From the IMG/VR virus record IMGVR_UViG_3300029828_000006, positions 1-64,000 of that record: a stretch of 64,000 bases of DNA, one strand, 5' to 3'. This DNA comes from a virus (lineage: Duplodnaviria; Heunggongvirae; Uroviricota; Caudoviricetes). Below, piece by piece: positions 13,890 to 40,777 of this stretch. The stretch's first letter is position 1; each line of letters opens with the position of its first letter. The position numbers and the translations under genes were made by a program. The notes below the pieces were generated by a model. It saw only the letters and a program-made list of their open reading frames with translations, searched no databases and had not been told where the DNA came from.

Positions 13890-13965
13890 TGGTGGCCCCT
13901 ACCGGACTTGAACCGGTGACCGTGCGATTATGAGTCGCCAGCTCTAACCACTGAGCTAAGGGGCC
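13890..13965 (-). tRNA. tRNA-Ile2 (anticodon CAU, lysidine type)
   Basis: 76 nt with CCA; near-identical to recalled E. coli ileX; anticodon loop CTCATAA. Confidence 0.9.
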
Positions 13966-13974
13966 AATTAGTTT

Positions 13975-14088
13975 TTATTTTCGACGCCTGAGATTCTTCG
14001 CTACTTGTTCTACTCCGTATACGATCACAAGCAGAAATAGCAAAGACCATCCAGGGTTCTTATCAATATACGTCCAAAAATCCATCAT
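13975..14088 (-). CDS. small membrane peptide (37 aa), TciC-position
   Basis: ATGATGG start overlaps upstream stop; one hydrophobic helix; below track cut-off. Confidence 0.3.
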   Translation of the reverse strand: MMDFWTYIDKNPGWSLLFLLVIVYGVEQVAKNLRRRK

Positions 14089-14249
14089 GAGTTCCTGAAC
14101 GCAGCTTTAATAATCGGCAATAGCAATACCACAGCTACTGAAACCAGTGCCCCATCAGCCAACACCGACATCACTTTGCTGGTGAAATCCACCAGCACGG
14201 ACAAAACGAGAAAACCAATGGCGCACGCAATACGCGCCTTGCCAATCAT
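14085..14249 (-). CDS. small membrane protein (54 aa), TciB-position
   Basis: Start overlaps tciA stop; two hydrophobic segments. Confidence 0.3.
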   Translation of the reverse strand: MIGKARIACAIGFLVLSVLVDFTSKVMSVLADGALVSVAVVLLLPIIKAAFRNS

Positions 14250-14683
14250 TACAGATAATCTTCCACACGAAGGCCCAAACGACGGCCTACTTCTTCCAGT
14301 ACTTTGTGTTCTGCTGGCTCGATTTCACCGTCCGCTTCTGCAATCGTCAGCATGTTAACGAATACTTCTTCCGCTTCTTTTGGATCATTTTTGATATCTT
14401 CAATTTCGCGAAGGATATTCATGCGACCAACACGGAAACCAGCTTCCAGTTGCTCAGTAAAACGGGTGATTGTTGCGGTAATTTCGTTGCCAAAATGACT
14501 TAAGCGAGGATTAGAGCGGACAAGCTGATCAAGTTTCGCTGTTTCTTCCTTTTCGATTTCACCATCTGCGGCAGACACCAACAAACAGCCACCGATAATG
14601 GCCTCCATCAGATCGCGATTCTCAACCCTTTTCAGCTCTACTTTTGCTGAAGCGACTTTCTTACCGAAAAATTTACCGAACAT
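14249..14683 (-). CDS. tciA: TerB-like protein (TciA-like)
   Basis: 144 aa with paired acidic helical repeats typical of the TerB fold. Confidence 0.6.
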   Translation of the reverse strand: MFGKFFGKKVASAKVELKRVENRDLMEAIIGGCLLVSAADGEIEKEETAKLDQLVRSNPRLSHFGNEITATITRFTEQLEAGFRVGRMNILREIEDIKNDPKEAEEVFVNMLTIAEADGEIEPAEHKVLEEVGRRLGLRVEDYL

Positions 14684-14950
14684 TGGTTATCCCTCAATAA
14701 ACATGACGTATTTATTAGGTTGCGGTGCCTGGTGCCTCCAGGTGACGTTAACCAGTTAACAATTAACGCCGGGATGTTTGACTTAACCACTAAGGAGGAT
14801 TGTTTTAACTGTTCCGCGTGCGCATAGCCGCATTCACCGCAATGGTAAGAGCACTTGGCTGGCTGGGCGGCGATGACGCCTGTACGCATTTGGTGATCCG
14901 GTTCTGCTTCCGGCATTCGCTTAATTAGCCAAATACTCTTAACGTTGCAC

Positions 14951-15037
14951 TGGCGGAGAGTAATGGAATCGAACCATCATCGCTTGCGCAATGGGACGGT
15001 TTTCAAGACCGTTTGAGCACCATGCTCCCTACTCTCC
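14951..15037 (-). tRNA. tRNA-Ser (anticodon UGA)
   Basis: 87 nt type II tRNA; acceptor GGAGAGT/ACTCTCC, anticodon loop CTTGAAA, long variable arm, CCA. Confidence 0.8.
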
Positions 15038-15139
15038 AGTGATTGTGATGGTCGGTGCTGAACTCCGACACAGGGTTGTAGCAAGCCCCGCAAAGCGCGC
15101 ACTACTGTAGTTGCGGCACATCAGCCTGTGCATTCACCA

Positions 15140-15229
15140 CAATGTTGAGAACACTGGTTGTCACGCTGCAACGCAACATTTATTCGTAGATTGGGATATG
15201 ACCCCGTTACGCCAGTGTTCTCAACGTTG
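15140..15229. repeat. long-stem hairpin (18-bp stem, 54-nt loop)
   Basis: CAATGTTGAGAACACTGG ... CCAGTGTTCTCAACGTTG, one wobble; preceded by conserved leader. Confidence 0.5.
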
Positions 15230-15370
15230 TAGTGCCGGTTACGGTTCCGGCCAGGCCTCTTCCTCAACGGGGTGTTCTCCATACGGACTACCGTTTATTG
15301 GTCGTTCCTGCGGTTTATGTTGTGAAGCCAGATGCTTATCTTCTGGTTGCTTCAAAGAGCTGCACTTCAT

Positions 15371-15438
15371 CACAACGGTAAGAGCACTCGATGCATTTAA
15401 GCCAAGCCCCATAAGGGAGAATGCCCTTACCTGTTGTG
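15371..15438. repeat. imperfect long-stem hairpin, same family
   Basis: CACAACGGTAAG ... CTTACCTGTTGTG; shares leader and GCTTGGC with next unit. Confidence 0.45.
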
Positions 15439-15566
15439 TTGTGATGACCGGTGCTGATCTCCGGCTTGCGGTTATTTCAGACTCTCACGGGCGTTTATTT
15501 GCCCCGCCGAACAGCTCTTTTCCGCAATAGCTGCAATGTCTTTCGCGCATCAGCCTGCGCATTCAT

Positions 15567-15653
15567 CACAACGGTAAGGGTACTTCGTAGGGATTCGAAC
15601 CCTCTGCCAAGCACGGCGATCTCCGACGTCGCAAAATACCCTTACCTGTTGTG
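15567..15653 (-). ncRNA. tRNA-like element lacking a D-arm
   Basis: Minus strand has canonical T-arm AGGG-TTCGAAT-CCCT and a 4-bp/9-nt hairpin inside a 16-bp stem; abuts tRNA-Thr. Confidence 0.4.
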
Positions 15654-15654
15654 T

Positions 15655-15730
15655 TGGTGCCGGTTAACGGACTCGAACCGCTGACATCCTGCTTACAAGG
15701 CAGGCGCTCTACCAACTGAGCTAAACCGGC
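15655..15730 (-). tRNA. tRNA-Thr (anticodon UGU)
   Basis: 76 nt; acceptor GCCGGTT/AACCGGC, anticodon loop CTTGTAA, CCA. Confidence 0.9.
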
Positions 15731-15734
15731 AATT

Positions 15735-15821
15735 TGGTGGGGAGTGATGGAGTCGAACCACCCGAGTCGCAATGACAGTAGATTTACAGTCTACCCCGCT
15801 ACCCCTACGGACTAACTCCCC
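15735..15821 (-). tRNA. tRNA-Tyr (anticodon GUA)
   Basis: 87 nt type II; anticodon arm AGACTGTAAATCT as in E. coli tRNA-Tyr; CCA. Confidence 0.85.
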
Positions 15822-15826
15822 TGAAT

Positions 15827-15903
15827 TGGCGATGGTGGGTGGATTCGAACCACCGACCGACAGCTTAGAAGGCTGCTGCTCTATCCTACTGAGCTACACC
15901 ACC
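15827..15903 (-). tRNA. tRNA-Arg (anticodon UCU)
   Basis: 77 nt; anticodon loop CTTCTAA; CCA. Confidence 0.85.
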
Positions 15904-19865: not shown

Positions 19866-20300
19866 CTACCCCATGATTCGATATTTCTCTATAGACTCGT
19901 CGTAACTTATGTACACGTATGGCTCGGTATCATCAGCATAAGGTGCGACTTCCAGAGCATGAACGGGATTGTATACCGCGTCATTTTCCAGGCGATCGCT
20001 CGAATACAGATGCCCAGCCAAAACCGTAAGCGCCGGGCGACTCATTTTGTAGATCTCTGCCACATCACTATCTACAACTTGTCCAAATGATATGTCGCCG
20101 CGCTCCAGCAATATCGTTTTGAGCGCGGGCCACCACGGACCATAAAGGTGATAAAGCTGTGGATTTTTCTTCAGTCTTTCTACCATGCCATCAAGATAAA
20201 CTGTCAGGTATTCTTCTTCACTCCTGCCATTGAGCGCCTGCGGCAAAATGTCCTCAAGGTAGGATTCCGTCGGTTTTACAGTGTCAATTAATGTCGTCAT
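19866..20300 (-). CDS. hypothetical protein (144 aa), immediately upstream of darB
   Basis: Occupies the ulx position relative to darB in P1. Confidence 0.45.
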   Translation of the reverse strand: MTTLIDTVKPTESYLEDILPQALNGRSEEEYLTVYLDGMVERLKKNPQLYHLYGPWWPALKTILLERGDISFGQVVDSDVAEIYKMSRPALTVLAGHLYSSDRLENDAVYNPVHALEVAPYADDTEPYVYISYDESIEKYRIMG

Positions 20301-20336
20301 TCAAATTCGGCCCCGGTTGGGGCCGCTCCTTATCTG

Positions 20337-23300
20337 TTAGGCCGCATCGGCGATTATTTTACGCAGTTCATCTACCGAGTAACGCGTAGATACCATCCAT
20401 GCAGGACGGTCAAAGTTCACATCAGCAACCGGGTTTGCTTCAAAATTCCAGAAACGCCCGCCAATCTTCTTAATCGCGTCTTTGGCGTTCCGTATTGTCG
20501 AGGAACCTGGCTGGTCGGCAATGAGATAAACCGCGCCAACGTCTTCGCTGACGCTCCACCAGCGCCCGCGAACACGCGCCTTAGCGCGAATCGGCTTATC
20601 ATTAACCACAATGATATAGTCATCATTCGCCGCTTCATCAGCTCTTGCTTCAGCCACTGCCGCCTGCTCTTCTCTTTTGCTTTCAGCCTGCTCAAGCCTT
20701 TTCGCGATCTCTGATTCAGTGGCCCCGCCGTTTTTCAGCGATACATAGTCCTGCCACGTTGCCGATTTGAGCGCATCCGGCAACTCATTCACATAGTCGC
20801 CGTCTTTCAACTCACGGGCGCGACGGGTAGCCATTTCTACCAGGCGATTAACAGAAACAGCATCAGCAAAATCGTCCTTACTAATGTGTTTTTCATCAAA
20901 TGCATTGATGACAGCCCCAACCTTAATCCACTGTGCTGCCGGTGATTCCAAGGGGTTATCAGCCTGAACAATGGCGAGTTTCGCTCCATCTACCCCATTA
21001 TTCGCCAGCTGTTCCAATGCCGCCCATCCATCTGCATCACTGAGTGATTTATATTGCTCAAACAATGCATCGCGCCAGGCCACCAGCGCAGAACGTGTTT
21101 TTTCGATCTTCGCCTTAATTTTCGCGATCTTGACCTGATTAAACATCCGTTCAATATCATCGATATTGCTAAAGGCTTTCATCCTGCCCTGGAATAAACG
21201 GTATGCCAGCACGGTCCTCCAGAATGATTCCAGACCTTCTCCGGACGGTTTACGGAACAAGCTAAGAATATCTTCAGAAGTGACTTTATTAAGCGAACGA
21301 CCTGACAGACCACGCCCAGCCATCCAGTTTTCGAACTCCTGGGCAACATCATCCATCGTTGCTTGTGCGCCCCATGCCTGCATTCCCTGGATGTAATCAT
21401 ACCCATACAATGCCTGGAGGAATCCCTCTCCGTCCACGATATTCAGCGGATTATCACTGGCTTGTATTTTTGCCACTTCACGCTTCAGCGCCTCATTGTT
21501 GATATCAGGGTAAATCCACTGCTCTGGTGCAATATCCGATGTACGCCCGATTTTCTGTCCTATCATGCCATCATAGGTCGATGACAGCGCGATCTGACCA
21601 TCATCTGTGCGATAAGCCCAGTATTTAATAGCTGACCCACCGCCCCATGCATTACCAGGTTTACCAGCAATAACATTCATTACCCCATTGCGAATAGCAT
21701 CATAGAACTGATCGCGAGTAAGTATTGTTGATAGCTGGTGGCACTGAACACCACGCGCAGCCGTTGCGCGCGATTCAGCTACCCCCTCTTCAAAAGTTAC
21801 CGCTTCAATCACAGAGTCAAACGGCAATGTAACGATTGACCCCGGTGCTCGAGCGTAACGACTTGCTCTATCCAGCCAGGCGATACGGCAGAGGTATTGT
21901 GCTTTTTCACCGTCAATTTTTTCCACCCGGACAATCGCTGTTGTTTCGCGATCATCAATGACTGCACGGTAATAACTACCTTTATGCAACAGGATATTCT
22001 TGTCAGTGCGCATATATTCCTGTGGGTTCTGAATAACATCGATACTGATATCCAGCACACCAGACTTAATAGCGCGCTCCACATCACCACGAGAGCGTTT
22101 CATTATGGTATCCGCGTCTTTTGCCCTGGTGATCGCAAACCGCAGCACCCGCGCACGTTTTCTGTAGCTACTCAACTGCTCAAGCGCGTATTTTTGCCCA
22201 TTCCTGTTCGTACCCGCTTTTATCAGGTCGTCAAGATTGCGCTGGTAATACTCTATCTGTTCCATCGCGCTTTTCAGTTCTGTCTCCATCATGCCGATAT
22301 CTTTTCCGGCGGCGTTTGCCGCTTTCAGGTAGATATCGAGAGCATTGTTGGCCTCGCGCTGTGCTTTCAGTTTCAGACGTTCTTCACGCTCTTGCGCCTG
22401 GCGAGCCATGATTGCGCGGCGTTCTTCCGGGTTTGCCGCCAGCATAATGGCGCGTTCATCAGCATCATCCGCATCACCATTGGCGATCTCTGACATGTCG
22501 GAGGTCATCACCATCTTGATCCAATCTTTCTTACGTTTCAGCGTATCCAGACGGAAGTCGTCGAATGTGCCTTTGCCACAATAGTAGTGAACATTGACCT
22601 TCTCTTGCGGTGAACCTACGCGCGCACCGCGCCCATTTCGTTGGTCGATACTGGCTGGTGTCCAGGGTAGTGTCAGGTGGTGGATATCGGTTGTCCCGAT
22701 GTGCAGGTTAATACCTACTTCAGCCTTCTTGTTACAGATTATGATACGCGTGCGACCTTCGTTATAGTCGGCGGCAATACCTTCCATGCCCTCAAGGCCA
22801 GCATCATTTTTAGCTGAGAGATAATCCTCATATTGGGCAAGTTTGCTGTAGTAGGTTTCCCATGCCCCTTCTTTGTATTCACCGTTTTTGTTTGGAGTAG
22901 GTTCGGTCGGCTTATTCACCTTCTTCAGCTTGATGCCGCCAGCCTGGCTAACTGTCGTTGCATTGATAATGCCAATCTCCTGCTCCGGCATTTGCAGTGC
23001 ACTGGCGATAATACGGCGCAGCTTCTGGTGCTGGGCTTTTTCATCAATAAAGACGATCTGCTTACCGTTCTTCAGACCTTCACGAAGATTTTCGATCAGC
23101 GCGGCATACTTCGGCGGGATGGGGTGCGATACCTGCTGCATATCAATACCGGCAGCCGCAATGGCCTTAAGTATTTCAGCTTCCAGTTCAATGCTGGCAC
23201 GTATTTCAACATGCGTCGGATGTTCACTAAAAGCGGTCTTCACTACCTTGCTGGTACGCGTACTGACCAGCCCGCCAGCGCCGTCTTCCTCGGCCTCATC

Positions 23301-26300
23301 AACATCATCTGCCACTTTACCGCCAGCTACTTTTGGCAAGGCATCAGCAATAGCTTTTACCTGGTCTGCAAGCTCAACGGGGAACTGGAATGTAATCGCA
23401 CTGGCATACAGATCCGGGTCTATAGCAACCTTGTCCATGTCACGGATGATGGAGAAGATGAAATCATCCGGTTTGTCGTTAGTGATATGCCCGTTTTCAT
23501 CGACTGTCAGCTCATCATTGCGACTTAACTCCTGAGCACGCTTACGAAGCTCTTCATAAGCAGTCTCCTGCTCCCCTGTCATCGGGATCTGCAAGGTGTT
23601 CTCAATGATGTCGGGAATTTTAACCGTTGCTCCGACATCTGCAGCAGTCTTCAGAGTGGTCCAACGATGGAAAATACCACGCAGGCCGTCAAGGTTCTGG
23701 AAGCCCACCAGCCCCTGCTTCTCTTCCACTTCCCCGGAAATTTTCTGGACCTGAACTGTGGCTGTTTTGCCAAACACACGAACGAAATCATCAGGCGTAA
23801 TGATGCCCATGCGCATCCACTCTTCCTGCGGAATGACAGTAGACAGCATGTTGAAGGCATCAATCGGACTGTTCACCAGCGGAGTTGCCGTCAGCATGAC
23901 TACACCACGCCCGTTGTTGCGTTTCATCATGTACGCAGCTTTTACAGCCATGTCGCGGGCCATCTTGGATACTGCCGGGTTAGGCAAATATGCCAGTTGT
24001 CCCGCTTCACGCCCGGCATTAAAGGAGTTGCGGTAGTTATGCCCCTCGTCGGCAATCACGCTATCGAAGTTCATATCCTCAAAGTACGGGATATTCTGCT
24101 TCTTCGTTGTACCGGTATTCGCGGCCTGATCCTTAATCTTGTTCTTCTTCTGCGCATCACGGTGTTTACCGGACGCCAGGTCAAGACGCCCCATTTCCAC
24201 AGCATTAAAGACAGCTTGCTGTGAGTTCTCCTCGATGGTTTTTTCTCGTAGCGGGATAGACGCGAATTGTTCTTTTGTCATGATGACCGTTCGCCAATTT
24301 GACGACGGGATCATGTTCATGCGCTGAACGATAACGGCGCTGGCGGACTCTTTCACAACATTTCTGGTAAGAGGCTGCCCGTTACTGTCGAGGCGTGGTT
24401 CGCCATTTTCATCAAGCACCGGCGCGGTCAGAATATTTCCGCTGTCATCACGAACTTCATCCAAACCGATAAACATCATATTGGCGAAGGCATCAGCACT
24501 GTAGAAACTCTGTGCCTCGTGATACCAGTTCTGATAAACCGCCTTCGGAACAACAATACACGTGCGTTTAGTGCGACCTGTTTCGAAGTTATACGCCTCA
24601 AGCGCAAGCGCGGTCGTGGTTTTACCCAGCCCGGTACCAAATCCCATGATGCCGCGCCCATCTTCTGACAAGCGCCGAACTTCTTCATTCTGATAAGTAA
24701 GAGGAATGCGCTTTCCACTAAGCCCTTCCAGGCCAAGCGGTGCGTCAGAATGCGTGAACGGAATGAAACCATTGAATGCGTCGTTATACTCGCGGGCTAT
24801 CTGATCAGCCTGCGGGTGAGTGCGTAACCAGTCGTTAAAACTAACTTCCAGTTGAGCAATTTTATCCAGGTACTCGTTAGCGTTCTGCCCACGCGGTTTA
24901 ACACCGTTCAGGTAGTTTTCTAACTGGTTCAGGAAGCCGTCTTTATTGTTGGCCTTCTTGAACTCATTCCCGTTTTTGCCGTTTACGGTTCGTAGCTGAT
25001 AGCCGGTAAATACCCCGTCCTTACCTTCGTAATCGTCCGGAGATACCAGAATGCCATCGACGACCTTCAGATCAGGTTCAGTGTACTTAAACTCGTCATA
25101 GCCCTGCTCTGCCAGGAACTCTTTTATCAAGCGGCGATCCAGCCAGCGGGCATTCAGATTAACGGTGACTTTATTTAGTGGCGTGAAAATACGTTTCTCT
25201 TCGATTTTCGCCAACTGACGCTCAAAGTTCGCTTTCTGCTCACCTGTTGACGCATCACGCCAGCCCATCAGCAATGCTGTTTTGGTTGCAATATCGCCGC
25301 TGGTGGCGCGGTCCATCGGCAGCAGGCAGCCATACCCATCAATAGCGATATCATCAAATTTCGCCAGGTATTCAAGGGCCGCGTCGTCGTCCTCTGGCAG
25401 TTCACCAGCAAACGCCTCACGAAAGTCTCCCAGCGTTATAGGATTAAGGGCTACATCACTGAAAAGATGTGCTATCACTTGTTCAGGACGTGTAAAGTCA
25501 ATACCGGCAGCACCATCCGTTACATCAAGTCGCCCTGCCAGAAGGTCAGAAGTGGAACCATCCTGTTTCACATTGCCAGTGAACGTCATCCAGTTTTTAG
25601 CGCCAGCTTCAGCAAGCCCATTCAGCTTAATGGCGTGCGGTGGCCCATACTTCGCAACTTCTGCTGCCGCCAGGCGGGATGCATCTGCCAGTTTGTCATC
25701 AACGTTCACACCCAGGTTACGCAAATCAAGTGCCTTGTTGATCAACTGACCTATCAGCGCACCGCGCATAACGCGCTCCCTGTCTTTTTCTCGCTGCTTG
25801 CCAGCAAAGCGAATCATTGCTGCCACTTCATCACTGACAACCGATGGATAGTCGGACGCGATCGCCGATATCTGGTCCCATGACAAAGCCAGAATCCCGT
25901 TTGTTGACTGGAACGCGATCTGCAGATCGCCAAACGTCGAAACACCATATCGACTTACATCAAGCGCGGAGGATTTGGTTGTCGTGTCCTTAACCCATTT
26001 CAGACCATCAAACTCATGCCAGATACCGCCTACAAGGCGTTTATCGCCCACTTTCGCGCCCTGCCATGCCTGAGTAGTTACGCCGAGCAAATCCCAATTG
26101 ATGCGACTATCAAAGCGACGAGATAGCGCGGTTTTCATCGACTCATTGGATACACGACCGTCTTTTTTCACCACCAGGGTATTGCGGAAGCTGGTACGTT
26201 CCATGTCGCCGTAAACAAATCGCTTCCCTTCGGTTGTAAACCATTTTCCTTTGAGGAAGGTATCCCAAAGGACGTTTGCCGATTTGAGTGTTGAATCATC

Positions 26301-27173
26301 CGTGTCGGGGATCATCTCCAGGAAGGTTTCCGGGTGTTTACGCAATACCCATACGTCCACCACGGTATCTGTACCGGATTCGCTGAACGTACCGGAAGGC
26401 ATACGATGTGCGCCCAAAAATTCCGCTTTACGGCTGACTTTATCGCGCAATTTTTTATATTTCGCACCATCGGTCATGCCATTTGGCACCACCAATACGA
26501 TAAGCCCACCAGGCTTAACCTTGTCGATCGTGCGCAGCACAAAGTAATTGCCAACGTTCTTCTCGTTTGCATATGCCGGATCAAGCCCGGCAACGCCGGA
26601 ACGCCCTTCACCAAACGGTACGTTACCAACAGCGTGGTCATACATTGCATCTTTCGCCGCCAGCGCCTCAAACGCCCCGATATTCACATCGTCTTCCGGG
26701 TGCAAAAGCTGGTTTATTCGACCAGAAATCGGAGACAGTTCGGCGCTGGTCATTATCATGCCCTGCCGTTTTGTCTCCTGGAAAATACCTGTGCCCGCTG
26801 ATGGTTCCAGTACGTGCCCGCCATCAATACCGTAGTCAGCAAACAGATCCCATATACCTTCAGCCATAAACTGTGGCGTGTAGTATTCGTATTGGCTGCC
26901 CTCACCATCTGTCAGGCCGCCTTCACCGGTATACCCAGCAAGAATCTGACGTTGTTCGTCAGTTAATTTCGCCCCATCGAAGCCGGGCGGAAGGGAATTA
27001 AGAAGATTTACTGCGGCATTGTTTGCTGCCCGGCGTGTTTTCTGAATACTGACGCCATCGGCTTTCCTGACGCCAAAGGTCGCAACAGCACGTAATTTAT
27101 GCAACCGACTAACAATTTCAATCAGTTCGCCTAAGCTGGAGGCTTCACTGATTGAATGAAGTAGTTTGTCCAA
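20337..27173 (-). CDS. darB: DarB-like antirestriction protein (N6-adenine methyltransferase + DExH helicase, 2278 aa)
   Basis: N-terminal EPSAGTG and NVPFG MTase motifs; central GFGTGLGKTT and IADEGH helicase motifs; TTG start with GAGGGGG RBS. Confidence 0.8.
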   Translation of the reverse strand: MDKLLHSISEASSLGELIEIVSRLHKLRAVATFGVRKADGVSIQKTRRAANNAAVNLLNSLPPGFDGAKLTDEQRQILAGYTGEGGLTDGEGSQYEYYTPQFMAEGIWDLFADYGIDGGHVLEPSAGTGIFQETKRQGMIMTSAELSPISGRINQLLHPEDDVNIGAFEALAAKDAMYDHAVGNVPFGEGRSGVAGLDPAYANEKNVGNYFVLRTIDKVKPGGLIVLVVPNGMTDGAKYKKLRDKVSRKAEFLGAHRMPSGTFSESGTDTVVDVWVLRKHPETFLEMIPDTDDSTLKSANVLWDTFLKGKWFTTEGKRFVYGDMERTSFRNTLVVKKDGRVSNESMKTALSRRFDSRINWDLLGVTTQAWQGAKVGDKRLVGGIWHEFDGLKWVKDTTTKSSALDVSRYGVSTFGDLQIAFQSTNGILALSWDQISAIASDYPSVVSDEVAAMIRFAGKQREKDRERVMRGALIGQLINKALDLRNLGVNVDDKLADASRLAAAEVAKYGPPHAIKLNGLAEAGAKNWMTFTGNVKQDGSTSDLLAGRLDVTDGAAGIDFTRPEQVIAHLFSDVALNPITLGDFREAFAGELPEDDDAALEYLAKFDDIAIDGYGCLLPMDRATSGDIATKTALLMGWRDASTGEQKANFERQLAKIEEKRIFTPLNKVTVNLNARWLDRRLIKEFLAEQGYDEFKYTEPDLKVVDGILVSPDDYEGKDGVFTGYQLRTVNGKNGNEFKKANNKDGFLNQLENYLNGVKPRGQNANEYLDKIAQLEVSFNDWLRTHPQADQIAREYNDAFNGFIPFTHSDAPLGLEGLSGKRIPLTYQNEEVRRLSEDGRGIMGFGTGLGKTTTALALEAYNFETGRTKRTCIVVPKAVYQNWYHEAQSFYSADAFANMMFIGLDEVRDDSGNILTAPVLDENGEPRLDSNGQPLTRNVVKESASAVIVQRMNMIPSSNWRTVIMTKEQFASIPLREKTIEENSQQAVFNAVEMGRLDLASGKHRDAQKKNKIKDQAANTGTTKKQNIPYFEDMNFDSVIADEGHNYRNSFNAGREAGQLAYLPNPAVSKMARDMAVKAAYMMKRNNGRGVVMLTATPLVNSPIDAFNMLSTVIPQEEWMRMGIITPDDFVRVFGKTATVQVQKISGEVEEKQGLVGFQNLDGLRGIFHRWTTLKTAADVGATVKIPDIIENTLQIPMTGEQETAYEELRKRAQELSRNDELTVDENGHITNDKPDDFIFSIIRDMDKVAIDPDLYASAITFQFPVELADQVKAIADALPKVAGGKVADDVDEAEEDGAGGLVSTRTSKVVKTAFSEHPTHVEIRASIELEAEILKAIAAAGIDMQQVSHPIPPKYAALIENLREGLKNGKQIVFIDEKAQHQKLRRIIASALQMPEQEIGIINATTVSQAGGIKLKKVNKPTEPTPNKNGEYKEGAWETYYSKLAQYEDYLSAKNDAGLEGMEGIAADYNEGRTRIIICNKKAEVGINLHIGTTDIHHLTLPWTPASIDQRNGRGARVGSPQEKVNVHYYCGKGTFDDFRLDTLKRKKDWIKMVMTSDMSEIANGDADDADERAIMLAANPEERRAIMARQAQEREERLKLKAQREANNALDIYLKAANAAGKDIGMMETELKSAMEQIEYYQRNLDDLIKAGTNRNGQKYALEQLSSYRKRARVLRFAITRAKDADTIMKRSRGDVERAIKSGVLDISIDVIQNPQEYMRTDKNILLHKGSYYRAVIDDRETTAIVRVEKIDGEKAQYLCRIAWLDRASRYARAPGSIVTLPFDSVIEAVTFEEGVAESRATAARGVQCHQLSTILTRDQFYDAIRNGVMNVIAGKPGNAWGGGSAIKYWAYRTDDGQIALSSTYDGMIGQKIGRTSDIAPEQWIYPDINNEALKREVAKIQASDNPLNIVDGEGFLQALYGYDYIQGMQAWGAQATMDDVAQEFENWMAGRGLSGRSLNKVTSEDILSLFRKPSGEGLESFWRTVLAYRLFQGRMKAFSNIDDIERMFNQVKIAKIKAKIEKTRSALVAWRDALFEQYKSLSDADGWAALEQLANNGVDGAKLAIVQADNPLESPAAQWIKVGAVINAFDEKHISKDDFADAVSVNRLVEMATRRARELKDGDYVNELPDALKSATWQDYVSLKNGGATESEIAKRLEQAESKREEQAAVAEARADEAANDDYIIVVNDKPIRAKARVRGRWWSVSEDVGAVYLIADQPGSSTIRNAKDAIKKIGGRFWNFEANPVADVNFDRPAWMVSTRYSVDELRKIIADAA

Positions 27174-27324
27174 AGGATTTCCCCCTCTAAACCGTAAAAA
27201 ATTCCGCTATGCGGTACGGTTGAGAGGGTATGGAGAATGTTATTTTCAGGGGGACGATACTACCGTCAAAATCACATACTCCCCATAGTTTGCCTACTTA
27301 TTAACCCATGACCGGGAGAAAAAT

Positions 27325-27810
27325 ATGGCAAACATTGAACCTCGCTGGCTAATTGAAGCCCGTAAGCACATTGGCCTGACTGAAATAAAAGGCGCTAAAC
27401 ACAACCCTGAAATCGTTCAGTTCTGGCGCGACATCAAGCGCGGCGGAATTAAAGACGATGAAACGCCGTGGTGCGCAGCATTTGTCGGTGCAATGCTGGA
27501 ACGTGTAGGCATCCGCTCAACAAGATTTGAGTCGGCAAAATCCTATCTGGATTGGGGCGAAAAATTAGATACACCGGCATACGGATGTATCGTTGTATTT
27601 ACCCGCGTAGGCGGTGGGCACGTAGGCTTCGTTGTCGGACGCCGTGCCAATGGCGATCTGCTTGTCCTGGGTGGGAACCAGGGGGATGCTGTTAATATTC
27701 GCGCATTCCCAACATCAAGAGTGTCTGGCTATCGCTGGCCTGCTGGCGAACCACGCAATACCGCTCTGTTACCAGTCGGAGACGCAGCAACCTCAACTAA
27801 TGAGGCATGA
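27325..27810 (+). CDS. peptidoglycan hydrolase of the TIGR02594 / NlpC-P60-like family
   Basis: PWCAAFV catalytic Cys context and GGGHVGFVVG His motif; 161 aa. Confidence 0.6.
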   Translation: MANIEPRWLIEARKHIGLTEIKGAKHNPEIVQFWRDIKRGGIKDDETPWCAAFVGAMLERVGIRSTRFESAKSYLDWGEKLDTPAYGCIVVFTRVGGGHVGFVVGRRANGDLLVLGGNQGDAVNIRAFPTSRVSGYRWPAGEPRNTALLPVGDAATSTNEA

Positions 27811-27836
27811 AAAAAGCCCCGGCCAGGCCGGGGCAT
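27811..27836. terminator. GC-rich hairpin terminator
   Basis: GCCCCGGCC/GGCCGGGGC stem after A-run; between convergent genes. Confidence 0.5.
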
Positions 27837-33306: not shown

Positions 33307-34704
33307 TTAGTTTTCCGTACGGCAATTATTTAGATCTGTAGAATTTTCAAACATAGCAAAGTTCAGACCTTTCCCTTCGCCAAATTCACCCTCAATTTCA
33401 TCAGATACAGCAGACAAAATACGACGCAGATCAACATCGCCACCGCCGAACATATCGCCCAATGCCTGTTGTTTATGAGTCAGCTCGTCGTTGATTTTTT
33501 GCGCCATTTTTTTGAATGCTGTCCCCATACGCTTCGCACTGCGATTATTTGCTACGATGAATAGCGCCAATGCCTCAGCTTCTGGTGTACTGTCGCCGAA
33601 TAACCCCCTTTGGGCGATCACTTCTTCAACGGCCTGACCGTTGTCTTTGGCTTCACGTACAAGATTAATTGCTTCCTGGAGTGCTGCTATCGCCTGTGTA
33701 TCCAGGCCATTAACCTGCTCTATACCGTCCACTAAGCCTGTTACTGCGTCATGGTGAGCGTCGCCAGACAGCGACTGCATTTGCGCAAAATCGCTGGCTG
33801 CCGTATTTAATGCGGTCAGGATATTACGCATTTCCGGATCTGGCTCTTCCGACACCAGCCGAACAAGCCTTTCATCCTTGTACGCTTTGGCAAAAATTGC
33901 ATTCTGGATGCGATCGATAAGCTGTTTCGTGGGACGCCCATCGGCAGTAAGCAAGCCTGCCGTCGCTGTATCGCCAATTTCGCGCAAAAACGCACGAATA
34001 AACGCATCATTGGACCGCGCCAGCAGATTTCCATCATCTGAAGGATTAAATAGCGCCATGACGCTCTCAGTGAGAAATTGCGCATCCGCATACGCTTTTT
34101 CACTTGCTGCCATCTCTTGCAGATCGCTAATGTTTGAATCGCGGGCAAATTGAGCGCGGTCTACATCTGTGAGTCTTTCTCGCACCAGTACGGGCATAGA
34201 CATTTGCGAAATTTCGTCAGGATTCAGACCAAACTCTTTCGCATGGTCGATCAGGTACTGGCGATACTCATCCGCCTGTCCTTGCTCATAGGCACGCCAG
34301 ATACCCATACTCCTTCCGTTGCCGGATTCAACAACGTTGTCCGGACCAACTATCGGCGCTCCGTGGCTGCTCATACCGGAATCCGTTAATTGTGCCGGGC
34401 GTAAATTGGAGGCAATACGGTTAACCTGGAGTTTGCTGGATAGCCGGGTACGATCTCGTGGTTGGAGTTCTTCCGGGAAGGCCGGGTTAATCGTACCGTC
34501 AAGGTTGTTCGAAATGATCAGACTGCTGGCATCAACGACCTTAAAAGCCGTCTTTACCTCTGCACCTTTGCTGGTGACTACGTAGCTACTTCGCCCCAGG
34601 CGTGTTTCTTTCCTCTCTAATGAAGAAACCAGAGCAATGACGCTGTTAATATCTGCGGCCCCGGAAAGCGCAGAAGTAACTGATTTGTTCAAAATACACT
34701 CCAA
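33307..34704 (-). CDS. hypothetical protein (465 aa)
   Basis: In darA-operon neighbourhood; no domain recognised. Confidence 0.45.
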   Translation of the reverse strand: MECILNKSVTSALSGAADINSVIALVSSLERKETRLGRSSYVVTSKGAEVKTAFKVVDASSLIISNNLDGTINPAFPEELQPRDRTRLSSKLQVNRIASNLRPAQLTDSGMSSHGAPIVGPDNVVESGNGRSMGIWRAYEQGQADEYRQYLIDHAKEFGLNPDEISQMSMPVLVRERLTDVDRAQFARDSNISDLQEMAASEKAYADAQFLTESVMALFNPSDDGNLLARSNDAFIRAFLREIGDTATAGLLTADGRPTKQLIDRIQNAIFAKAYKDERLVRLVSEEPDPEMRNILTALNTAASDFAQMQSLSGDAHHDAVTGLVDGIEQVNGLDTQAIAALQEAINLVREAKDNGQAVEEVIAQRGLFGDSTPEAEALALFIVANNRSAKRMGTAFKKMAQKINDELTHKQQALGDMFGGGDVDLRRILSAVSDEIEGEFGEGKGLNFAMFENSTDLNNCRTEN

Positions 34705-34759
34705 CTATAGAGAAAGCTGTGAGTGTAAAAAGTGTGTGATTTATGTGAGAACAGATAAG

Positions 34760-34785
34760 TGAAAGGGGCATTTCAGCCCCTTTTG
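34760..34785. terminator. hairpin terminator
   Basis: GGGGC-loop-GCCCC with T-run. Confidence 0.45.
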
Positions 34786-34786
34786 A

Positions 34787-35155
34787 TTACCCGGCATAAC
34801 CGTTAGCTTTCACCCAGCTTATGGTCTGCTCTTTAGCCTGCTCCAACGTAAGGAACTCGCCAACATAGTTTGAGATCCCACGCAGCGCATCAATAAATTC
34901 CATTTGTGTGGACTTTGTGAAGACACCGCCCAGGAAGTCAGTCACTATCTTAGGGACTTCATCTACAACAGGATCAGTCTGTTGTTGCGGTTCCGCTGCC
35001 GGTTGCGCGGCAGTCCCCAGGCCCAATTTCAGCATCACATCAACAATCTGCTTACCAATGGTGACGCGTTGCAATACTGGCGCAGTTTTCTGCGCCTGCA
35101 TTAGATCTGATAGCTCTTTACCTAATTTCAGGCGGTCTAAAACAGAGATGGTCAT
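34787..35155 (-). CDS. hypothetical protein (122 aa), DdrA-position
   Basis: Coupled to upstream DarA-like gene. Confidence 0.35.
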   Translation of the reverse strand: MTISVLDRLKLGKELSDLMQAQKTAPVLQRVTIGKQIVDVMLKLGLGTAAQPAAEPQQQTDPVVDEVPKIVTDFLGGVFTKSTQMEFIDALRGISNYVGEFLTLEQAKEQTISWVKANGYAG

Positions 35156-37125
35156 TAAGCACCTCCCTGCTGAATTTCAGCCAGAATGTTGATCAGGTAG
35201 TCAACTGCTGCACCAACAGTGGCTTCGTTCTCGTCGTATCGACCTGCACTGATTAGAGCGTTTGCTGCTTCCTGCACATGATCAAGTTCAGCACTAATGA
35301 CCGTCAGATCGCGGGATGTAAACTGCTCCGGCACGGATTTCAGGTACTCCAGTGCTTTATCTGCCTCCTGATCAGCTTCATTTGCTGATTCACCCGTTTC
35401 TTCTGGCTCCTGTTCTGGTGCTGGTTGTGGTTGTGGTTGTGGTTGTGATTCTGGCTCAACCATATGCTCTGTTTTTACTTCGCTTGAATGATTTTGAAGG
35501 GCGTTATACACGTCCATAATGAAAAGGTTCTCCCCATCACTAAGTGGATACGCCACGTTTGGAAACGCTTTGCGGAAAAGAATTTTCACTTGCGCCTTGA
35601 ATGTTTTCAGGTCACTGCCAAACAGGTCCACATAGCCATCAATATGTTTCGACATGCTGGACGCAACCAATTGGTCTGCAAAATCTTTCAGCTCATCTTC
35701 ATCAGGAAGATAGAGCAACTCGTACTGGCTGACTTCTTCATCTGTCAGTTTACGGTCATACGTAATGATACCGTGACGAGCATATTCGTAATACTGATCA
35801 GCCTGGTCAGGACGATCAAGCACGGCTTTATTTCCATCCGGAACAGCACCAACACCAGCCGGGCGAGATTGAAGTGCATAGTGGTATTTACCTACATCTT
35901 GGCTCTCTGGTTGTAATACTGGGTTCGTTTCGGGGTCTGTCTGTGGTGGTTCGGAGTCTTCCAGCTGGCCTGGTAACACATCAACTTTATATTTATCTGC
36001 GTTATGCTCTCGGTAGGCTTTAAGTAATTTGGTTGCAGCATCTGCCAAACTGCCTCCTTTGACAGCACTGGCATCAATACTGAATTTACCTTCAGGTGCT
36101 ACTATCGTAACGAAATTATCACTGCCGGACGTGACATAATTAACTTCAGCTCCATTATCCAGCACTGTTTTTCCGTCAATGGCAAGATTATGTTTTACAT
36201 GTCGCAGCTGGTCACTAAACGCTCGTTCTTTCGTTTTTTCACCTTTAGCAGACAACAATTTATCGCGTTTTGCTTGTAATTCCTCGTTGATGGCTTTCTG
36301 GGCATCAAGTTTTTTTTGCATCTCCGTAAGAGCAGCACGCTTTTCAGTCAGCCCACGTTGCGCAACTTCCACCTGATCAATCATTATTGACCGTTCTTCT
36401 GCCAGTTTATCTGCTTCATTGAGATAACTCTCAATATCTGCCTTCATTTTGTCCTGGCGCTCTTTTGCTTTCTTAAATTTTTCGCTGTTACGCTCAATCA
36501 AATTAGATAGCGCCTGGCATACCTGGCTTAAAGAAACATCTCTCCCACCAATCGGGGCGACAACGTGAGTTACGTTACGTTTATTAAGTAAAAACTGAAA
36601 TGCAACAAGCTCGTCGTTACTCTTTATTTTTGCCCCGTCAGCTGTTGGAGAGTGGAAAATTATGCTTGTACTCTGCCCGTCAGTAAGCGGTATCTGCGCG
36701 GTCAAAACAGGGATATTAGCTACCCGACGTACACGACCGATAATCGCACCACCAATACAATTACGTCCATTTTCATCGGTCCCAGCTTCATCAGTCCCTG
36801 CCATAATATTCGTACCATTCAGGCCACGATTCAGCGCACGGACGAAAGCTCGCATTGTTTGAGCTAACCGAATTCTGGTTGTAGTTATGGACTCAAACAT
36901 AGCTTCGTCAGACACAACCAGAATTTCATTGCCCATATAGGCAAGCTCAATATCTTCTAAGGTCGCCGCCTCAAAAATCAGGTCATCTTCGCTTAATTCT
37001 TCTGAAGACCAGCGACTTGGCATATAGCCGGGGATCGTATCAGCAAAAGTAGACTGAATATTAATTCGTAAAGGATTGTTAATCATGCTCATCCTCCAGG
37101 CGCGCGATTTCTTCTTTAAGAGCAC
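35155..37125 (-). CDS. DarA-like head-internal protein (656 aa)
   Basis: Follows lydA/lydB as darA does in P1; central coiled coil; QPQPQPQP tract. Confidence 0.4.
   Translation of the reverse strand: MLLKKKSRAWRMSMINNPLRINIQSTFADTIPGYMPSRWSSEELSEDDLIFEAATLEDIELAYMGNEILVVSDEAMFESITTTRIRLAQTMRAFVRALNRGLNGTNIMAGTDEAGTDENGRNCIGGAIIGRVRRVANIPVLTAQIPLTDGQSTSIIFHSPTADGAKIKSNDELVAFQFLLNKRNVTHVVAPIGGRDVSLSQVCQALSNLIERNSEKFKKAKERQDKMKADIESYLNEADKLAEERSIMIDQVEVAQRGLTEKRAALTEMQKKLDAQKAINEELQAKRDKLLSAKGEKTKERAFSDQLRHVKHNLAIDGKTVLDNGAEVNYVTSGSDNFVTIVAPEGKFSIDASAVKGGSLADAATKLLKAYREHNADKYKVDVLPGQLEDSEPPQTDPETNPVLQPESQDVGKYHYALQSRPAGVGAVPDGNKAVLDRPDQADQYYEYARHGIITYDRKLTDEEVSQYELLYLPDEDELKDFADQLVASSMSKHIDGYVDLFGSDLKTFKAQVKILFRKAFPNVAYPLSDGENLFIMDVYNALQNHSSEVKTEHMVEPESQPQPQPQPAPEQEPEETGESANEADQEADKALEYLKSVPEQFTSRDLTVISAELDHVQEAANALISAGRYDENEATVGAAVDYLINILAEIQQGGA
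35422..35445. repeat. hexanucleotide tandem repeat (TGGTTG)x4 encoding QPQPQPQP
   Basis: Four perfect tandem copies inside DarA-like ORF. Confidence 0.8.
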
Positions 37126-37714
37126 GTGTCTTAGCTACTTCCTGAGACAAGGCAGCTTTAACATTACCCGTATCTTGCATTACTTTGTCTGACTTGCTCT
37201 GGAGTTTAGACAGTTTGTCGTTAGCATTAGCGATATCTTCACGGAGTGCATCACGTGATTCTTTCGCTTCAGCTAATTTCTGAGCGTTAGATTTAACTCC
37301 CTGCCGCTTCTTATTTCCGTCATCAATATTTTTTGCTGCACGAGCAAGTTTTCGAGCTAATGACTTCTGGAAAGAAGTTGCTCCACGATTAAATAAAGCC
37401 GCAAGAGATTGCCCCAAAGCCGACATTGTTTTTACTGGCTTGAACGGTACTGTTTTACCATTCAGTTTGATCCCAGATATATCACCGGTATCGTTAACCT
37501 GAACTTCCATTGTCTGTTCATCAATACCAATAAGGGTAAACGTGCGCGTCATGATCCCATCTTTCTTCCTGCCATTACTTGCAGGGATCACCCTCGCTAT
37601 CTTGTAACCACCTTTGCTGATTTCTTTGACGAGTTTTGCCAGCCCCTTTTCGTTTAACTCATCATAATTAAGAAGAACATAATTATTCTTATTTGACATC
37701 CCAGTCTCCTTCAC
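37079..37714 (-). CDS. hypothetical protein (211 aa)
   Basis: Basic coiled-coil C-terminus; between lydB and darA-like. Confidence 0.4.
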   Translation of the reverse strand: MKETGMSNKNNYVLLNYDELNEKGLAKLVKEISKGGYKIARVIPASNGRKKDGIMTRTFTLIGIDEQTMEVQVNDTGDISGIKLNGKTVPFKPVKTMSALGQSLAALFNRGATSFQKSLARKLARAAKNIDDGNKKRQGVKSNAQKLAEAKESRDALREDIANANDKLSKLQSKSDKVMQDTGNVKAALSQEVAKTRALKEEIARLEDEHD

Positions 37715-38566: not shown

Positions 38567-39127
38567 ATGCTTATTGGATACATTCGCGTATCAACTAATG
38601 ACCAAAACACCGCTTTACAACGAAACGCCCTTGAAAGCGCAGGATGTGAGCTAATTTTTGAGGATAAGGCGAGCGGCAAAAAGGCTGAACGCCCAGGGTT
38701 AAAAAAGGTTCTGCGTATTATTTCCAGAGGTGACACCCTGGTCGTATGGAAGTTAGATCGTCTTGGGCGCAGCATGCGTCACTTGGTTGTGCTGGTGGAA
38801 GAGCTGCGTGACAGAGGCATTAACTTCCGAAGTCTCACTGACTCCATCGACACCAGTACACCAATGGGGCGCTTTTTCTTTCACGTAATGGGGGCGCTGG
38901 CAGAAATGGAACGTGAGCTTATCGTTGAACGTACACGCGCTGGACTTGATGCAGCTCGCGCAGAAGGTCGTATAGGTGGGCGTCGGCCTAAATACAAAGA
39001 AGAAACATGGCAGCAAATGCGGCGATTGCTGGAGAAGGGCATCCCCCGTAAGCAGGTTGCAATCATCTATGATGTGGCTGTTTCCACGCTTTATAAGAAG
39101 TTTCCGGCGTCATCATTTCAATCCTAA
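38567..39127 (+). CDS. cin: Cin serine DNA invertase
   Basis: MLIGYIRVSTNDQNT...VVWKLDRLGRSM...GRFFFHVMGALAEMEREL matches Cin/Gin/Hin; 3' end runs into cix. Confidence 0.9.
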   Translation: MLIGYIRVSTNDQNTALQRNALESAGCELIFEDKASGKKAERPGLKKVLRIISRGDTLVVWKLDRLGRSMRHLVVLVEELRDRGINFRSLTDSIDTSTPMGRFFFHVMGALAEMERELIVERTRAGLDAARAEGRIGGRRPKYKEETWQQMRRLLEKGIPRKQVAIIYDVAVSTLYKKFPASSFQS

Positions 39128-39144: not shown

Positions 39145-39174
39145 CTCGGTACCAGCGGTGAAAAGATCCCCCTG

Positions 39175-40776: not shown

Positions 40777-40777
40777 C

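What the first reader, a model, noticed from the sequence alone, without database searches (positions are those of the whole stretch)
20337..27173. Giant DarB-like methyltransferase-helicase with TTG start
A 2278-aa protein combines N6-adenine methyltransferase motifs with a DExH helicase core, as in P1 DarB. No ATG is available; a TTG follows a GAGGGGG ribosome-binding site.
Basis: partly seen in the sequence, partly recalled or inferred. Interest (0 to 1): 0.45.

Follow-up and report, generated by a model that had tools for sequence, protein, structure and literature searches.

The report
DarB anti-restriction gene of D6-like prophage
This is the already-annotated darB gene of a D6-like (P1-family) plasmid prophage of E. 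coli, encoding a giant virion-delivered methyltransferase/SNF2-ATPase that shields injected phage DNA from host restriction; its TTG start is real, and the finding is ordinary.

Summary
On the minus strand, 20337-27173 is an intact 2278-codon ORF. It starts at a TTG 7 nt after GAGGGGG. An in-frame TAG lies 12 codons upstream with no other start codon between, and the first in-frame ATG is codon 103.

The interpretation also holds. The protein aligns with P1 DarB from residue 1 to the end at about 40% identity, in the same domain order: N-terminal helical region, N6-adenine methyltransferase, SNF2-type DEGH ATPase, and a long C-terminal region.

The window is 100% identical to E. coli plasmid CP088384.1 and 98.8% identical to phage D6. 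The D6 authors annotated this exact CDS, TTG included, as "similar to P1 gene darB". RefSeq and PGAP call the same CDS. ulx follows it, and hdf, darA, ddrA and ddrB lie 6-10 kb away.

Catalytic motifs of both enzymes are invariant or nearly so across 43 homologues. The C-terminal third is poorly conserved, restricted to this family, and has no informative fold match.

The biochemical mechanism of DarB is still undefined in the literature. I favour ATP-driven translocation coupled to adenine methylation of the co-injected DNA.

Verdict: already known, low interest.

The parts
20337..27173 (-). darB-type CDS, 2278 aa plus TAA stop
   Evidence: ORF list and translation. 40% identical and colinear with P1 DarB. 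Same CDS annotated in D6, RefSeq and PGAP records. PHROG 1685 matched end to end.
27171..27173 (-). TTG initiation codon
   Evidence: Aligned with the ATG of P1 darB. TTG retained in an 88%-identical homologue, GTG in Pantoea eucalypti.
27181..27187 (-). Shine-Dalgarno-like GAGGGGG, 7 nt before the TTG
   Evidence: A purine-rich tract (GAAGGGG) is kept at the same spacing in the diverged homologue L009.
27207..27209 (-). nearest upstream in-frame stop (TAG), which bounds the N-terminus
27084..27173 (-). residues 1-30, positional equivalent of the P1 DarB capsid-targeting sequence
   Evidence: P1 residues 1-30 suffice to target a reporter protein to the capsid (PMC9024508). This stretch aligns to them without gaps at about 27% identity. 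Function here is inferred.
26889..27083 (-). rest of the N-terminal helical region (LPD36-like) with GEGG (GxGU) motif at residues 83-86
   Evidence: Helices in the AF2 model. GxGU motif and LPD36 described by Iyer et al. (PMC5512222). G83/G85/G86 invariant in 43 homologues.
26184..26888 (-). gamma-class N6-adenine DNA methyltransferase core (residues ~96-330): TP 99-100, motif I 123-131, motif IV NVPF 184-187
   Evidence: Pfam N6_Mtase. Foldseek matches to HsdM, M.TaqI, CamA and M.BseCI at E 1e-8 to 1e-5. Motif residues invariant.
24714..26183 (-). middle region (residues ~331-820) with no assigned domain
   Evidence: No Pfam hit. Moderately conserved, 0.45-0.67. Confidently folded in AF2.
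22554..24713 (-). SWI2/SNF2-type ATPase, two lobes with a variable insert (residues ~821-1540): GLGKT 848-852, DEGH 1042-1045, TATP 1095-1098, QRNGRGAR 1511-1518
   Evidence: Pfam SNF2-rel_dom, ResIII and Helicase_C. PDB sequence hit to INO80. Motifs at least 90% conserved.
20340..22553 (-). C-terminal third (residues 1541-2278): coiled-coil helices, small beta-barrels and a helical bundle; family-specific and fast-evolving
   Evidence: About 20% identity to P1. Only 51 hits among 1.84 billion representatives, of which every hit longer than about 1,600 aa (26) is DarB-sized and matches in its C-terminal part; the other 25 are shorter sequences or fragments whose type was not established. AF2 pLDDT 85. 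No significant fold match.
20308..20325 (-). GC-rich hairpin between an AAGGAG motif (20326-20331) and the ulx ATG
   Evidence: -16.2 kcal/mol, z -3.7. Equivalent hairpins with different stem sequences occur in P1 and two Pantoea plasmids.
19866..20300 (-). ulx homologue (144 aa), the DarB packaging helper in P1
   Evidence: tblastn to P1 Ulx 48% identity, 9e-40. PHROG 'Ulx-like anti-restriction' 7.5e-59.
33307..37714 (-). hdf-darA-ddrA-ddrB homologues. Longest-ORF bounds: ddrB 33307-34704, ddrA 34787-35155, darA 35155-37125, hdf 37079-37714.
   Evidence: tblastn with P1 proteins: DdrB 64% (N-terminal 442 aa only), DdrA 33%, DarA 38%, Hdf 40%. ORFs. D6 annotation.

Best explanation
The ORF is the darB orthologue of a D6-like, P1-family plasmid prophage.

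Shown here:
- It is an intact gene that starts at TTG.
- It is colinear with P1 DarB.
- It carries a gamma-class N6-adenine DNA methyltransferase and a SWI2/SNF2 ATPase. The catalytic motifs of both are conserved across the family.
- It sits next to ulx, in a genome that also encodes hdf, darA, ddrA and ddrB.

Taken from published P1 work and inferred here by orthology:
- The protein is made late and recruited into the procapsid through its N-terminal ~30 residues. Recruitment needs Hdf/DarA, then DdrB and Ulx. About 40 copies are packaged per virion.
- It is ejected with the DNA and protects that DNA, in cis only, against EcoK/EcoB-type type I restriction.

My inference on mechanism: on entry, DarB loads on the incoming duplex. 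It uses the SNF2 motor to track along the DNA without unwinding it, and it methylates adenines as it goes. Type I enzymes then meet modified or hemimethylated targets, or an occupied track, and do not start the translocation-collision cleavage reaction.

The TTG start probably just sets a modest translation rate. The divergent C-terminal third probably mediates partner contacts (capsid, Dar proteins or a target).
For: - Identity: (98.8% to D6 orf15 'similar to P1 darB'; 100% to CP088384.1; 40% colinear with P1 DarB; PHROG 1685 matched end to end).
- Start codon.
- Enzyme domains.
- Purifying selection on both active sites: TP99-100, E123, P124, G129, F131, N184, P186 and F187 are invariant. 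The Walker A, DEGH, TATP and motif VI residues are at least 90% conserved in 43 homologues that go down to 36% identity.
- System context: ulx, ddrB, ddrA, darA and hdf homologues are in the window.
- P1 biology: packaging order, N-terminal targeting signal, ~40 copies per virion, EcoK/EcoB specificity and cis action (PMC9024508; PMC12810830; PMC12707154).
- The methylase-plus-SNF2 tracking model was proposed by Iyer et al. (PMC5512222).
Against: - No experiment exists for the D6-type protein. Everything functional is transferred from a 40%-identical orthologue.
- The literature read here states that the DarB mechanism is undefined (PMC11109961; PMC12707154; PMC9009780).
- No methylation by DarB is reported in the papers read here.
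- No target-recognition domain was identified here. It is therefore unclear how one methylase would cover the unrelated EcoK and EcoB sites.
- P1 residues 6-10, the most critical part of the capsid signal, are not conserved here.
- DdrB, needed in P1 for DarB packaging, is only half-length here.
- No convincing promoter was found upstream.
Confidence: 0.9

Rival explanations
1. Same gene and same delivery route, but protection does not depend on methylation. DarB would act as a DNA-bound SNF2 motor or roadblock that displaces or stalls type I (and BREX-like) complexes. The methyltransferase fold would serve as a DNA- or SAM-binding module, or as a decoy for the host enzymes.
For: - Dar works only in cis, which led reviewers to suggest physical occlusion (PMC12707154).
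- It counters enzymes with unrelated recognition sequences, and interference with the restricting assembly has been suggested (PMC9009780).
- No target-recognition domain was detected beyond the methylase core.
Against: The SAM-binding and catalytic NVPF residues are invariant in 43 homologues down to 36% identity. That is hard to explain if catalysis were dispensable. No direct data exist either way.
Confidence: 0.25
2. The annotated start is wrong: translation begins at the first ATG (codon 103), or the long frame is a decaying pseudogene.
For: TTG is a rare start codon. One related plasmid record shows the gene split into fragments (L012).
Against: - Residues 1-102 align with P1 DarB and include invariant positions such as G34, K37, R47, N51, L70, Y81 and G83.
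- They cover the region that in P1 carries the capsid-targeting signal.
- Codon-position bias of substitutions starts at the TTG.
- The frame is intact in D6 and in more than 100 plasmids.
- Relatives use TTG, GTG or ATG at the aligned site.
Confidence: 0.02
3. It is a host-protecting defence gene (a fused methylase/SNF2 module like those of DISARM, Dpd or type I/III R-M systems) carried by the plasmid, not an anti-defence protein.
For: Weak NCBIfam similarity of the helicase C-lobe to DISARM DrmD and DpdE. Methylase-helicase pairings are common in R-M systems.
Against: - The scores are far below the family cut-offs (44.5 vs 610 bits; 31.7 vs 500) and are confined to the generic helicase lobe.
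- No nuclease or other defence partner lies next to it. The neighbours are ulx and phage morphogenesis genes.
- Full-length orthology is to DarB.
Confidence: 0.03

Closest known systems
Escherichia phage D6 orf15 protein (ASR76325.1 / YP_009914692.1), 'defense against restriction, similar to P1 gene darB'
   Same: Same length (2278 aa), same TTG start, and identical upstream sequence over the 128 nt compared. 98.8% nucleotide identity over the 7,064-nt query, with 85 nt and 20 aa differences in the CDS. Same neighbours: a divergent TIGR02594 lysozyme-like gene upstream, and ulx and orf13 downstream.
   Different: Only 20 substitutions, clustered around residues 1866-1944 in the variable C-terminal third. 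E. coli plasmid CP088384.1 is 100% identical over gene and flank.
Phage P1 DarB (YP_006479.1, 2255 aa)
   Same: Colinear over the full length. Same order of N-terminal helical region, gamma N6A methylase, SNF2 ATPase and C-terminal extension. Equivalent catalytic motifs. Followed by ulx after a Shine-Dalgarno-plus-hairpin junction. Accompanied by hdf, darA, ddrA and ddrB.
   Different: 40% identity overall, falling to about 20% after residue 1600. ATG versus TTG start. Different upstream neighbour: prt/pro with an annotated PdarB in P1, a lysozyme-like gene here. Critical capsid-signal residues 6-10 are not conserved. The partner DdrB is half-length here.
Methylase-SNF2 'dyad' of polyvalent proteins (Iyer, Burroughs, Anand, de Souza & Aravind 2017, PMC5512222)
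   Same: LPD36-type N-terminal region with a GxGU motif, an EcoKI/TaqI-like methylase with TP cap and N-x-P-F motif, and a SWI2/SNF2 ATPase fused C-terminally.
   Different: That class is broad, and many members carry extra effector domains (for example the 3,764-aa podophage homologue). This protein has only the dyad plus family-specific regions with no recognisable domains.
Type I R-M HsdM methyltransferase subunits / M.TaqI
   Same: Fold and motifs of the methylase core (Foldseek E about 1e-8 to 1e-6; PDB sequence hit 7eew).
   Different: No HsdS partner or recognisable target-recognition domain. Fused to a motor. Serves the phage rather than the host.

Membership tests
DarB (P1-family virion anti-restriction protein) | Full-length, colinear sequence homology to P1 DarB | tested here: met
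   BLASTP 1518 bits, 40% identity, one alignment from residue 1 to the C-termini. MAFFT profile.
DarB (P1-family virion anti-restriction protein) | Architecture: N-terminal helical (LPD36) region, then gamma N6-adenine methylase, then SWI2/SNF2 ATPase, with intact catalytic motifs | tested here: met
   Pfam, motif mapping, invariance in 43 homologues, Foldseek to HsdM/M.TaqI.
DarB (P1-family virion anti-restriction protein) | Encoded in a P1-like myovirus or phage-plasmid genome, immediately upstream of ulx | tested here: met
   The window is a D6-like plasmid prophage. The ulx homologue starts 36 nt after the darB stop.
DarB (P1-family virion anti-restriction protein) | Co-occurrence of the other Dar components (hdf, darA, ddrA, ddrB) needed for packaging | tested here: met
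   All four were found by tblastn at 33-64% identity. DdrB covers only P1 residues 2-442 of 995.
DarB (P1-family virion anti-restriction protein) | N-terminal capsid-targeting sequence (P1 residues 1-30, critical 6-10) | tested here: inconclusive
   The N-terminus aligns without gaps, and both regions are predicted or likely helical. Only about 8 of 30 residues are identical and none of residues 6-10 is. The signal may have co-evolved with D6 capsid partners.
DarB (P1-family virion anti-restriction protein) | Physical presence in virions and ejection with the DNA | not testable with these tools
   Needs virion proteomics of an induced lysogen. Shown only for P1 (PMC9024508).
DarB (P1-family virion anti-restriction protein) | Cis-acting protection against EcoK/EcoB-type type I restriction | not testable with these tools
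   Needs plating-efficiency assays of a deletion mutant. Shown only for P1.
SWI2/SNF2 ATPases (SF2) | SNF2-related N-lobe, Helicase_C lobe, and motifs I, II (DEGH), III and VI | tested here: met
   PF00176 46.8 bits (cut-off 24.9), PF00271 24.3 bits (cut-off 23.5). Motifs. Best PDB sequence hit is INO80.
DISARM DrmD / DpdE defence helicases | Score above the NCBIfam equivalog cut-off | tested here: not met
   44.5 bits vs 610; 31.7 bits vs 500. Matches are limited to the helicase C-lobe.

The most novel reading that the evidence does not exclude
The fast-evolving, family-restricted C-terminal third (residues ~1600-2278) is about 20% identical to P1, well folded in the AF2 model, and has no informative structural match. 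It could be a specificity module. If so, D6-type DarB would neutralise a different set of restriction or BREX-like systems, or dock to different capsid partners, than P1 DarB. That would help explain why D6-like and P1-like phage-plasmids coexist in Enterobacterales.
Probability: 0.2. Interest if true: 0.35.

Novelty: already known. Interest (0 to 1): 0.08.

Why it matters
D6-like plasmid prophages are common in clinical and animal E. coli and Salmonella. Of the 5,426 complete E. coli genomes searched, 93 carry at least 80% of this gene, almost always on a ~90-kb plasmid. In the plasmid collection, 113 records carry at least 80% of it. DarB is presumably one reason these elements, and the DNA they transduce, cross type I restriction barriers.

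Nothing about this copy changes current understanding. The gene, its TTG start and its kinship to P1 darB are already in public annotation. The open question is how DarB works biochemically, and this sequence does not make that question more tractable than P1 itself does.

Tried and rejected
1. Promoter upstream of darB.
- The sigma-70 scan gave one weak site (TTGACG-16-GAAAAT, 27269-27242). The number of sites in the region was no more than in shuffles.
- The P1 late-promoter pattern, derived from LPlyz, LPpro and LPdar (AAGTNAYTW-N4-TANNNT), has no match near darB and is not enriched in the window.
- A box similar to the LPlyz -22 box (ATGTGATTT, starting at about 27277) has the wrong spacing and recurs only once elsewhere in the window.
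- The promoter is left unresolved.

2. Domain assignment of the unannotated 60% of the protein.
- Pfam run on four separate segments at E<=1 gave nothing credible.
- NCBIfam gave only sub-threshold helicase-lobe hits.

3. C-terminal third.
- The word-indexed homologue search returned only near-identical fragments.
- The exhaustive HMMER scan found 51 hits; the long ones are DarB-type proteins matching in their C-terminal part, the rest short sequences or fragments.
- Foldseek against the PDB had no hit at E<=0.001. It gave only ~60-residue Tudor/SH3-like barrel resemblances at E>0.1.
- No function could be assigned.

4. Alternative start codons (TTG at codon 24, ATG at codon 103) were rejected on conservation and the absence of a Shine-Dalgarno tract.

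5. The defence-system reading (DISARM/Dpd-like) was rejected.

6. Scarcity of EcoKI/EcoBI sites inside darB (0 and 0) is not meaningful, because only about 0.8 of each is expected in 6.8 kb (expectation is my arithmetic).

7. The primary papers Piya et al. 2017 (PMC6011833) and Gilcrease & Casjens 2018 (PMC5800970) are not held. Their content is cited only through papers that quote them and through the GenBank record.

8. RNAalifold on the darB-ulx junction was uninformative because MAFFT misaligned the short sequences. Single-sequence folds were used instead.

Full report
**1. Observation**

The feature is real and sits at the stated coordinates, but on the minus strand.
- The ORF listing reports 20337..27173 (-), 2278 aa, TTG start.
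- Read on the minus strand, the start region is TAG-cgg-aat-ttt-tta-cgg-ttt-aGAGGGGGaaatcct-TTG-gac-aaa.
- GAGGGGG occupies 27181-27187, 7 nt before the TTG at 27171-27173.
- The nearest in-frame stop is 12 codons upstream (27207-27209), with no ATG, GTG or TTG between it and the TTG.
- The next in-frame candidates are a TTG at codon 24, which has no purine tract, and the first ATG at codon 103.
- The stated motifs exist. Methylase: TP 99-100, EPSAGTGIF 123-131, NVPF 184-187. ATPase: GLGKT 848-852, DEGH 1042-1045, TATP 1095-1098, QRNGRGAR 1511-1518.
- Pfam passes its own thresholds for SNF2-rel_dom, ResIII, Helicase_C and N6_Mtase.

**2. What the window is**

- The 7,064-nt query (gene plus 227 nt of upstream flank) is 100% identical to E. 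coli plasmid pF16EC0589-1 (CP088384.1, 91.9 kb, human blood). It is 98.8% identical to Escherichia phage D6.
- Most of the 64-kb window aligns with D6 at 88-99%.
- D6 is a P1-like temperate myovirus that is maintained as a plasmid.
- 113 records in the plasmid collection, and 93 of 5,426 complete E. coli genomes, carry at least 80% of the gene. Nearly all copies are on non-mobilisable plasmids of about 90 kb.

**3. Prior annotation**

- The D6 authors' GenBank record annotates a CDS of the same length and the same TTG start as "defense against restriction; similar to P1 gene darB; orf15".
- RefSeq and PGAP call the same 6837-nt CDS, under the names "DEAD/DEAH box helicase family protein" and "SNF2-related protein".
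- PHROG 1685 is a 2278-position profile that the protein matches from end to end.
- The gene, its start codon and its interpretation are therefore already public.

**4. Comparison with P1 DarB**

- BLASTP gives 1518 bits, 40% identity and 57% positives in one colinear alignment. It starts at Met1 of P1 (an ATG) opposite the TTG codon here.
- Identity by 100-residue bins is 50-55% in the N-terminal and methylase part, 29-46% in residues 300-800, up to 69% in the ATPase lobes, and 18-26% after residue 1600.
- Every catalytic motif has its counterpart.

**5. The TTG start**

Beyond the reading-frame logic, comparison with relatives supports it.
- An E. coli plasmid homologue 88.6% identical at the DNA level (pHX138.33gt_1) has TTG at the same position behind GAAGGGG, with a different upstream stop.
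- Pantoea eucalypti pEuc3 uses GTG. P1 and Pantoea sp. CCBC3-3-1 use ATG.
- Two further database homologues are recorded with an N-terminal L, which indicates a non-ATG start.
- Differences between the window and the 88% homologue fall 13/6/40 on codon positions 1/2/3 from the TTG on. The 75 nt upstream are only 61% identical.
- In a 43-sequence alignment, Met1 is aligned in at least 90% of sequences. Many positions within residues 34-100 are invariant.
- In P1 the first 30 residues are sufficient to direct a reporter into the capsid (PMC9024508). Truncating the protein to codon 103 would therefore remove a functional region.

**6. System context**

- The ulx homologue (19866-20300, 48% identical to P1 Ulx) starts 36 nt after the darB stop.
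- Homologues of ddrB, ddrA, darA and hdf lie at 33.3-37.7 kb on the same strand, downstream of lydA/lydB, as in P1.
- All six known Dar components are therefore present.
- DdrB is about 460 aa and matches only residues 2-442 of the 995-aa P1 protein.

**7. Family and structure**

- The full-length search found 1269 proteins at E<=1e-10. The best 120 are 2200-2320 aa proteins, mostly on 80-100 kb contigs of Enterobacterales and Aeromonas. They include the P1 cluster (P0102, 16,340 members) and the D6-type cluster (P0013, 4,384 members).
- In 43 representatives that go down to 36% identity, the methylase motif residues are invariant and the SNF2 motifs are at least 90% conserved.
- Column conservation is 0.7 in the methylase, 0.75-0.85 in the ATPase lobes, 0.45-0.67 in residues 350-800, and 0.28-0.46 in residues 1600-2279.
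- The AF2 model of residues 1-830 (pLDDT 82) matches HsdM subunits, M.TaqI, CamA and M.BseCI by Foldseek at E 1e-8 to 1e-5. This agrees with the EcoKI/TaqI-like assignment by Iyer et al. (PMC5512222).
- An exhaustive HMMER scan of 1.84 billion representatives with this segment found 51 proteins. Every hit longer than about 1,600 aa (26) is DarB-sized and matches in its C-terminal part; the other 25 are shorter sequences or fragments whose type was not established.

**8. How it most likely works**

Shown for P1, not for this protein:
- Dar proteins are packaged stepwise: Hdf and DarA first, then DdrA and DdrB, then DarB and Ulx.
- DarB is present at about 40-45 copies per head.
- The proteins leave the head with the DNA.
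- Loss of DarB, Ulx or DdrB sensitises the phage to EcoB and EcoK.
- Protection acts only on the DNA that was in the same virion (PMC9024508; PMC12810830; PMC12707154).

The biochemical step is explicitly described as undefined (PMC11109961; PMC9009780).

Both active sites are under strict purifying selection, and SNF2 motors track duplex DNA without unwinding it (established knowledge, summarised). I therefore favour the Iyer et al. model. In that model DarB loads on the entering DNA, translocates using ATP, and methylates adenines, so that type I enzymes no longer see an unmodified substrate. This is inference.

The main rival is a methylation-independent roadblock or displacement mechanism. 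It fits the cis-only action and the breadth of targets, but it fits the invariant catalytic residues less well.

**9. Comparison with known families, and novelty**

- All sequence, architecture and context criteria for DarB membership are met.
- The capsid-signal criterion is inconclusive, because residues 6-10 are not conserved.
- The two functional criteria cannot be tested in silico.
- The protein is not a DISARM/Dpd-type defence helicase, because its scores are far below those cut-offs.
- An essentially identical gene is already annotated as a darB homologue, TTG start included. The finding is already known and of low interest.
- The most novel reading still open is that the fast-evolving C-terminal third sets a different anti-restriction or docking specificity from P1.

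**10. Side observations**

These are listed separately in the report. They are a conserved Shine-Dalgarno-plus-hairpin junction between darB and ulx, a variant tRNA cluster, strong Chi enrichment, the half-length DdrB, and a rearranged tail-fibre segment.

Noticed in passing
window 20301-20336 (-); L003 12309-12341; L013 71-100; L014 72-115: The darB-ulx intergenic junction has the same layout in four diverged lineages: stop codon, then AGGA(G), then a stable GC-rich hairpin, then 7-13 nt, then the ulx ATG. The hairpins fold at -14 to -17 kcal/mol (z -2.9 to -4.1), and the stem sequences differ between lineages (GGCCCC/GGGGCC here, CGCCCGG/CCGGGCG in P1). The Shine-Dalgarno motif is 25 nt from the ATG unless the hairpin folds. 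This suggests structure-dependent translation of ulx, or a 3' stabiliser for darB mRNA.
   Followed up: partly
window 13890-15903 (-): ARAGORN finds five tRNA genes: Met(CAU), Ser(UGA), Thr(UGU), Tyr(GUA) and Arg(UCU). Phage D6 has Asn(GUU), Thr, Ser and Met, and in the stretch of plasmid NZ_CP173462 examined (which stops before where Met would lie) the set is Asn(GUU), Thr and Ser. In this window Arg(UCU)+Tyr replace Asn, and the Arg gene shares its acceptor and T-arm ends with the D6 Asn gene. The same variant region is 99.5-100% identical in at least nine other E. coli plasmids.
   Followed up: partly
whole window; darB 20337-27173: Chi (GCTGGTGG) occurs 33 times in 64 kb, 10 on the + strand and 23 on the - strand. 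About 0.7 per strand is expected from base composition. Five lie in darB, against 11 in P1 darB, which matches PMC11109961. That paper shows Chi plus EcoKI sites on cloned darB DNA can by themselves alleviate EcoKI restriction, a caveat for any plasmid-based DarB assay.
   Followed up: partly
window 33307-34704 (-): The ddrB homologue is about 460 aa and aligns only to residues 2-442 of the 995-aa P1 DdrB, at 64% identity. The C-terminal half of P1 DdrB is absent, as in D6 orf25 (454 aa). In P1, DdrB aids DarB packaging.
   Followed up: no
window 27325-27810 (+) and 27816-27834: A 161-aa TIGR02594-family, lysozyme-like protein (PHROG 'baseplate hub subunit and tail lysozyme') is transcribed divergently from darB. 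In P1 the prt/pro genes occupy that position. It ends at a perfect 8-bp GC hairpin with T-runs on both strands, which is a likely bidirectional terminator.
   Followed up: no
window 39100-44000: The Cin-invertible tail-fibre (C-segment) region is in the opposite orientation to the D6 record and only 88-91% identical to it. The flanks are 97-99% identical. This is consistent with inversion plus host-range divergence.
   Followed up: no
L009 (NZ_CP091837.1) 1-1573; L012 (NZ_CP031917.1) 2125-3738: In plasmid pHX138.33gt_1 an IS200/IS605-type element sits about 200 bp upstream of the TTG. It replaces the sequence beyond window position ~27246, including the only sigma-70-like candidate site, while the gene stays intact. 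In NZ_CP031917.1 the gene is annotated as several small fragments, which indicates frameshifts or assembly errors.
   Followed up: no
homologues P0013-P0132: Precomputed Pfam annotations on nearly all homologues include PF28555 (and PF28554 on the Aeromonas-type ones). The local Pfam copy did not report these families for the window protein. Presumably they are new Pfam families that cover a DarB-specific region. I could not find out what they describe.
   Followed up: no
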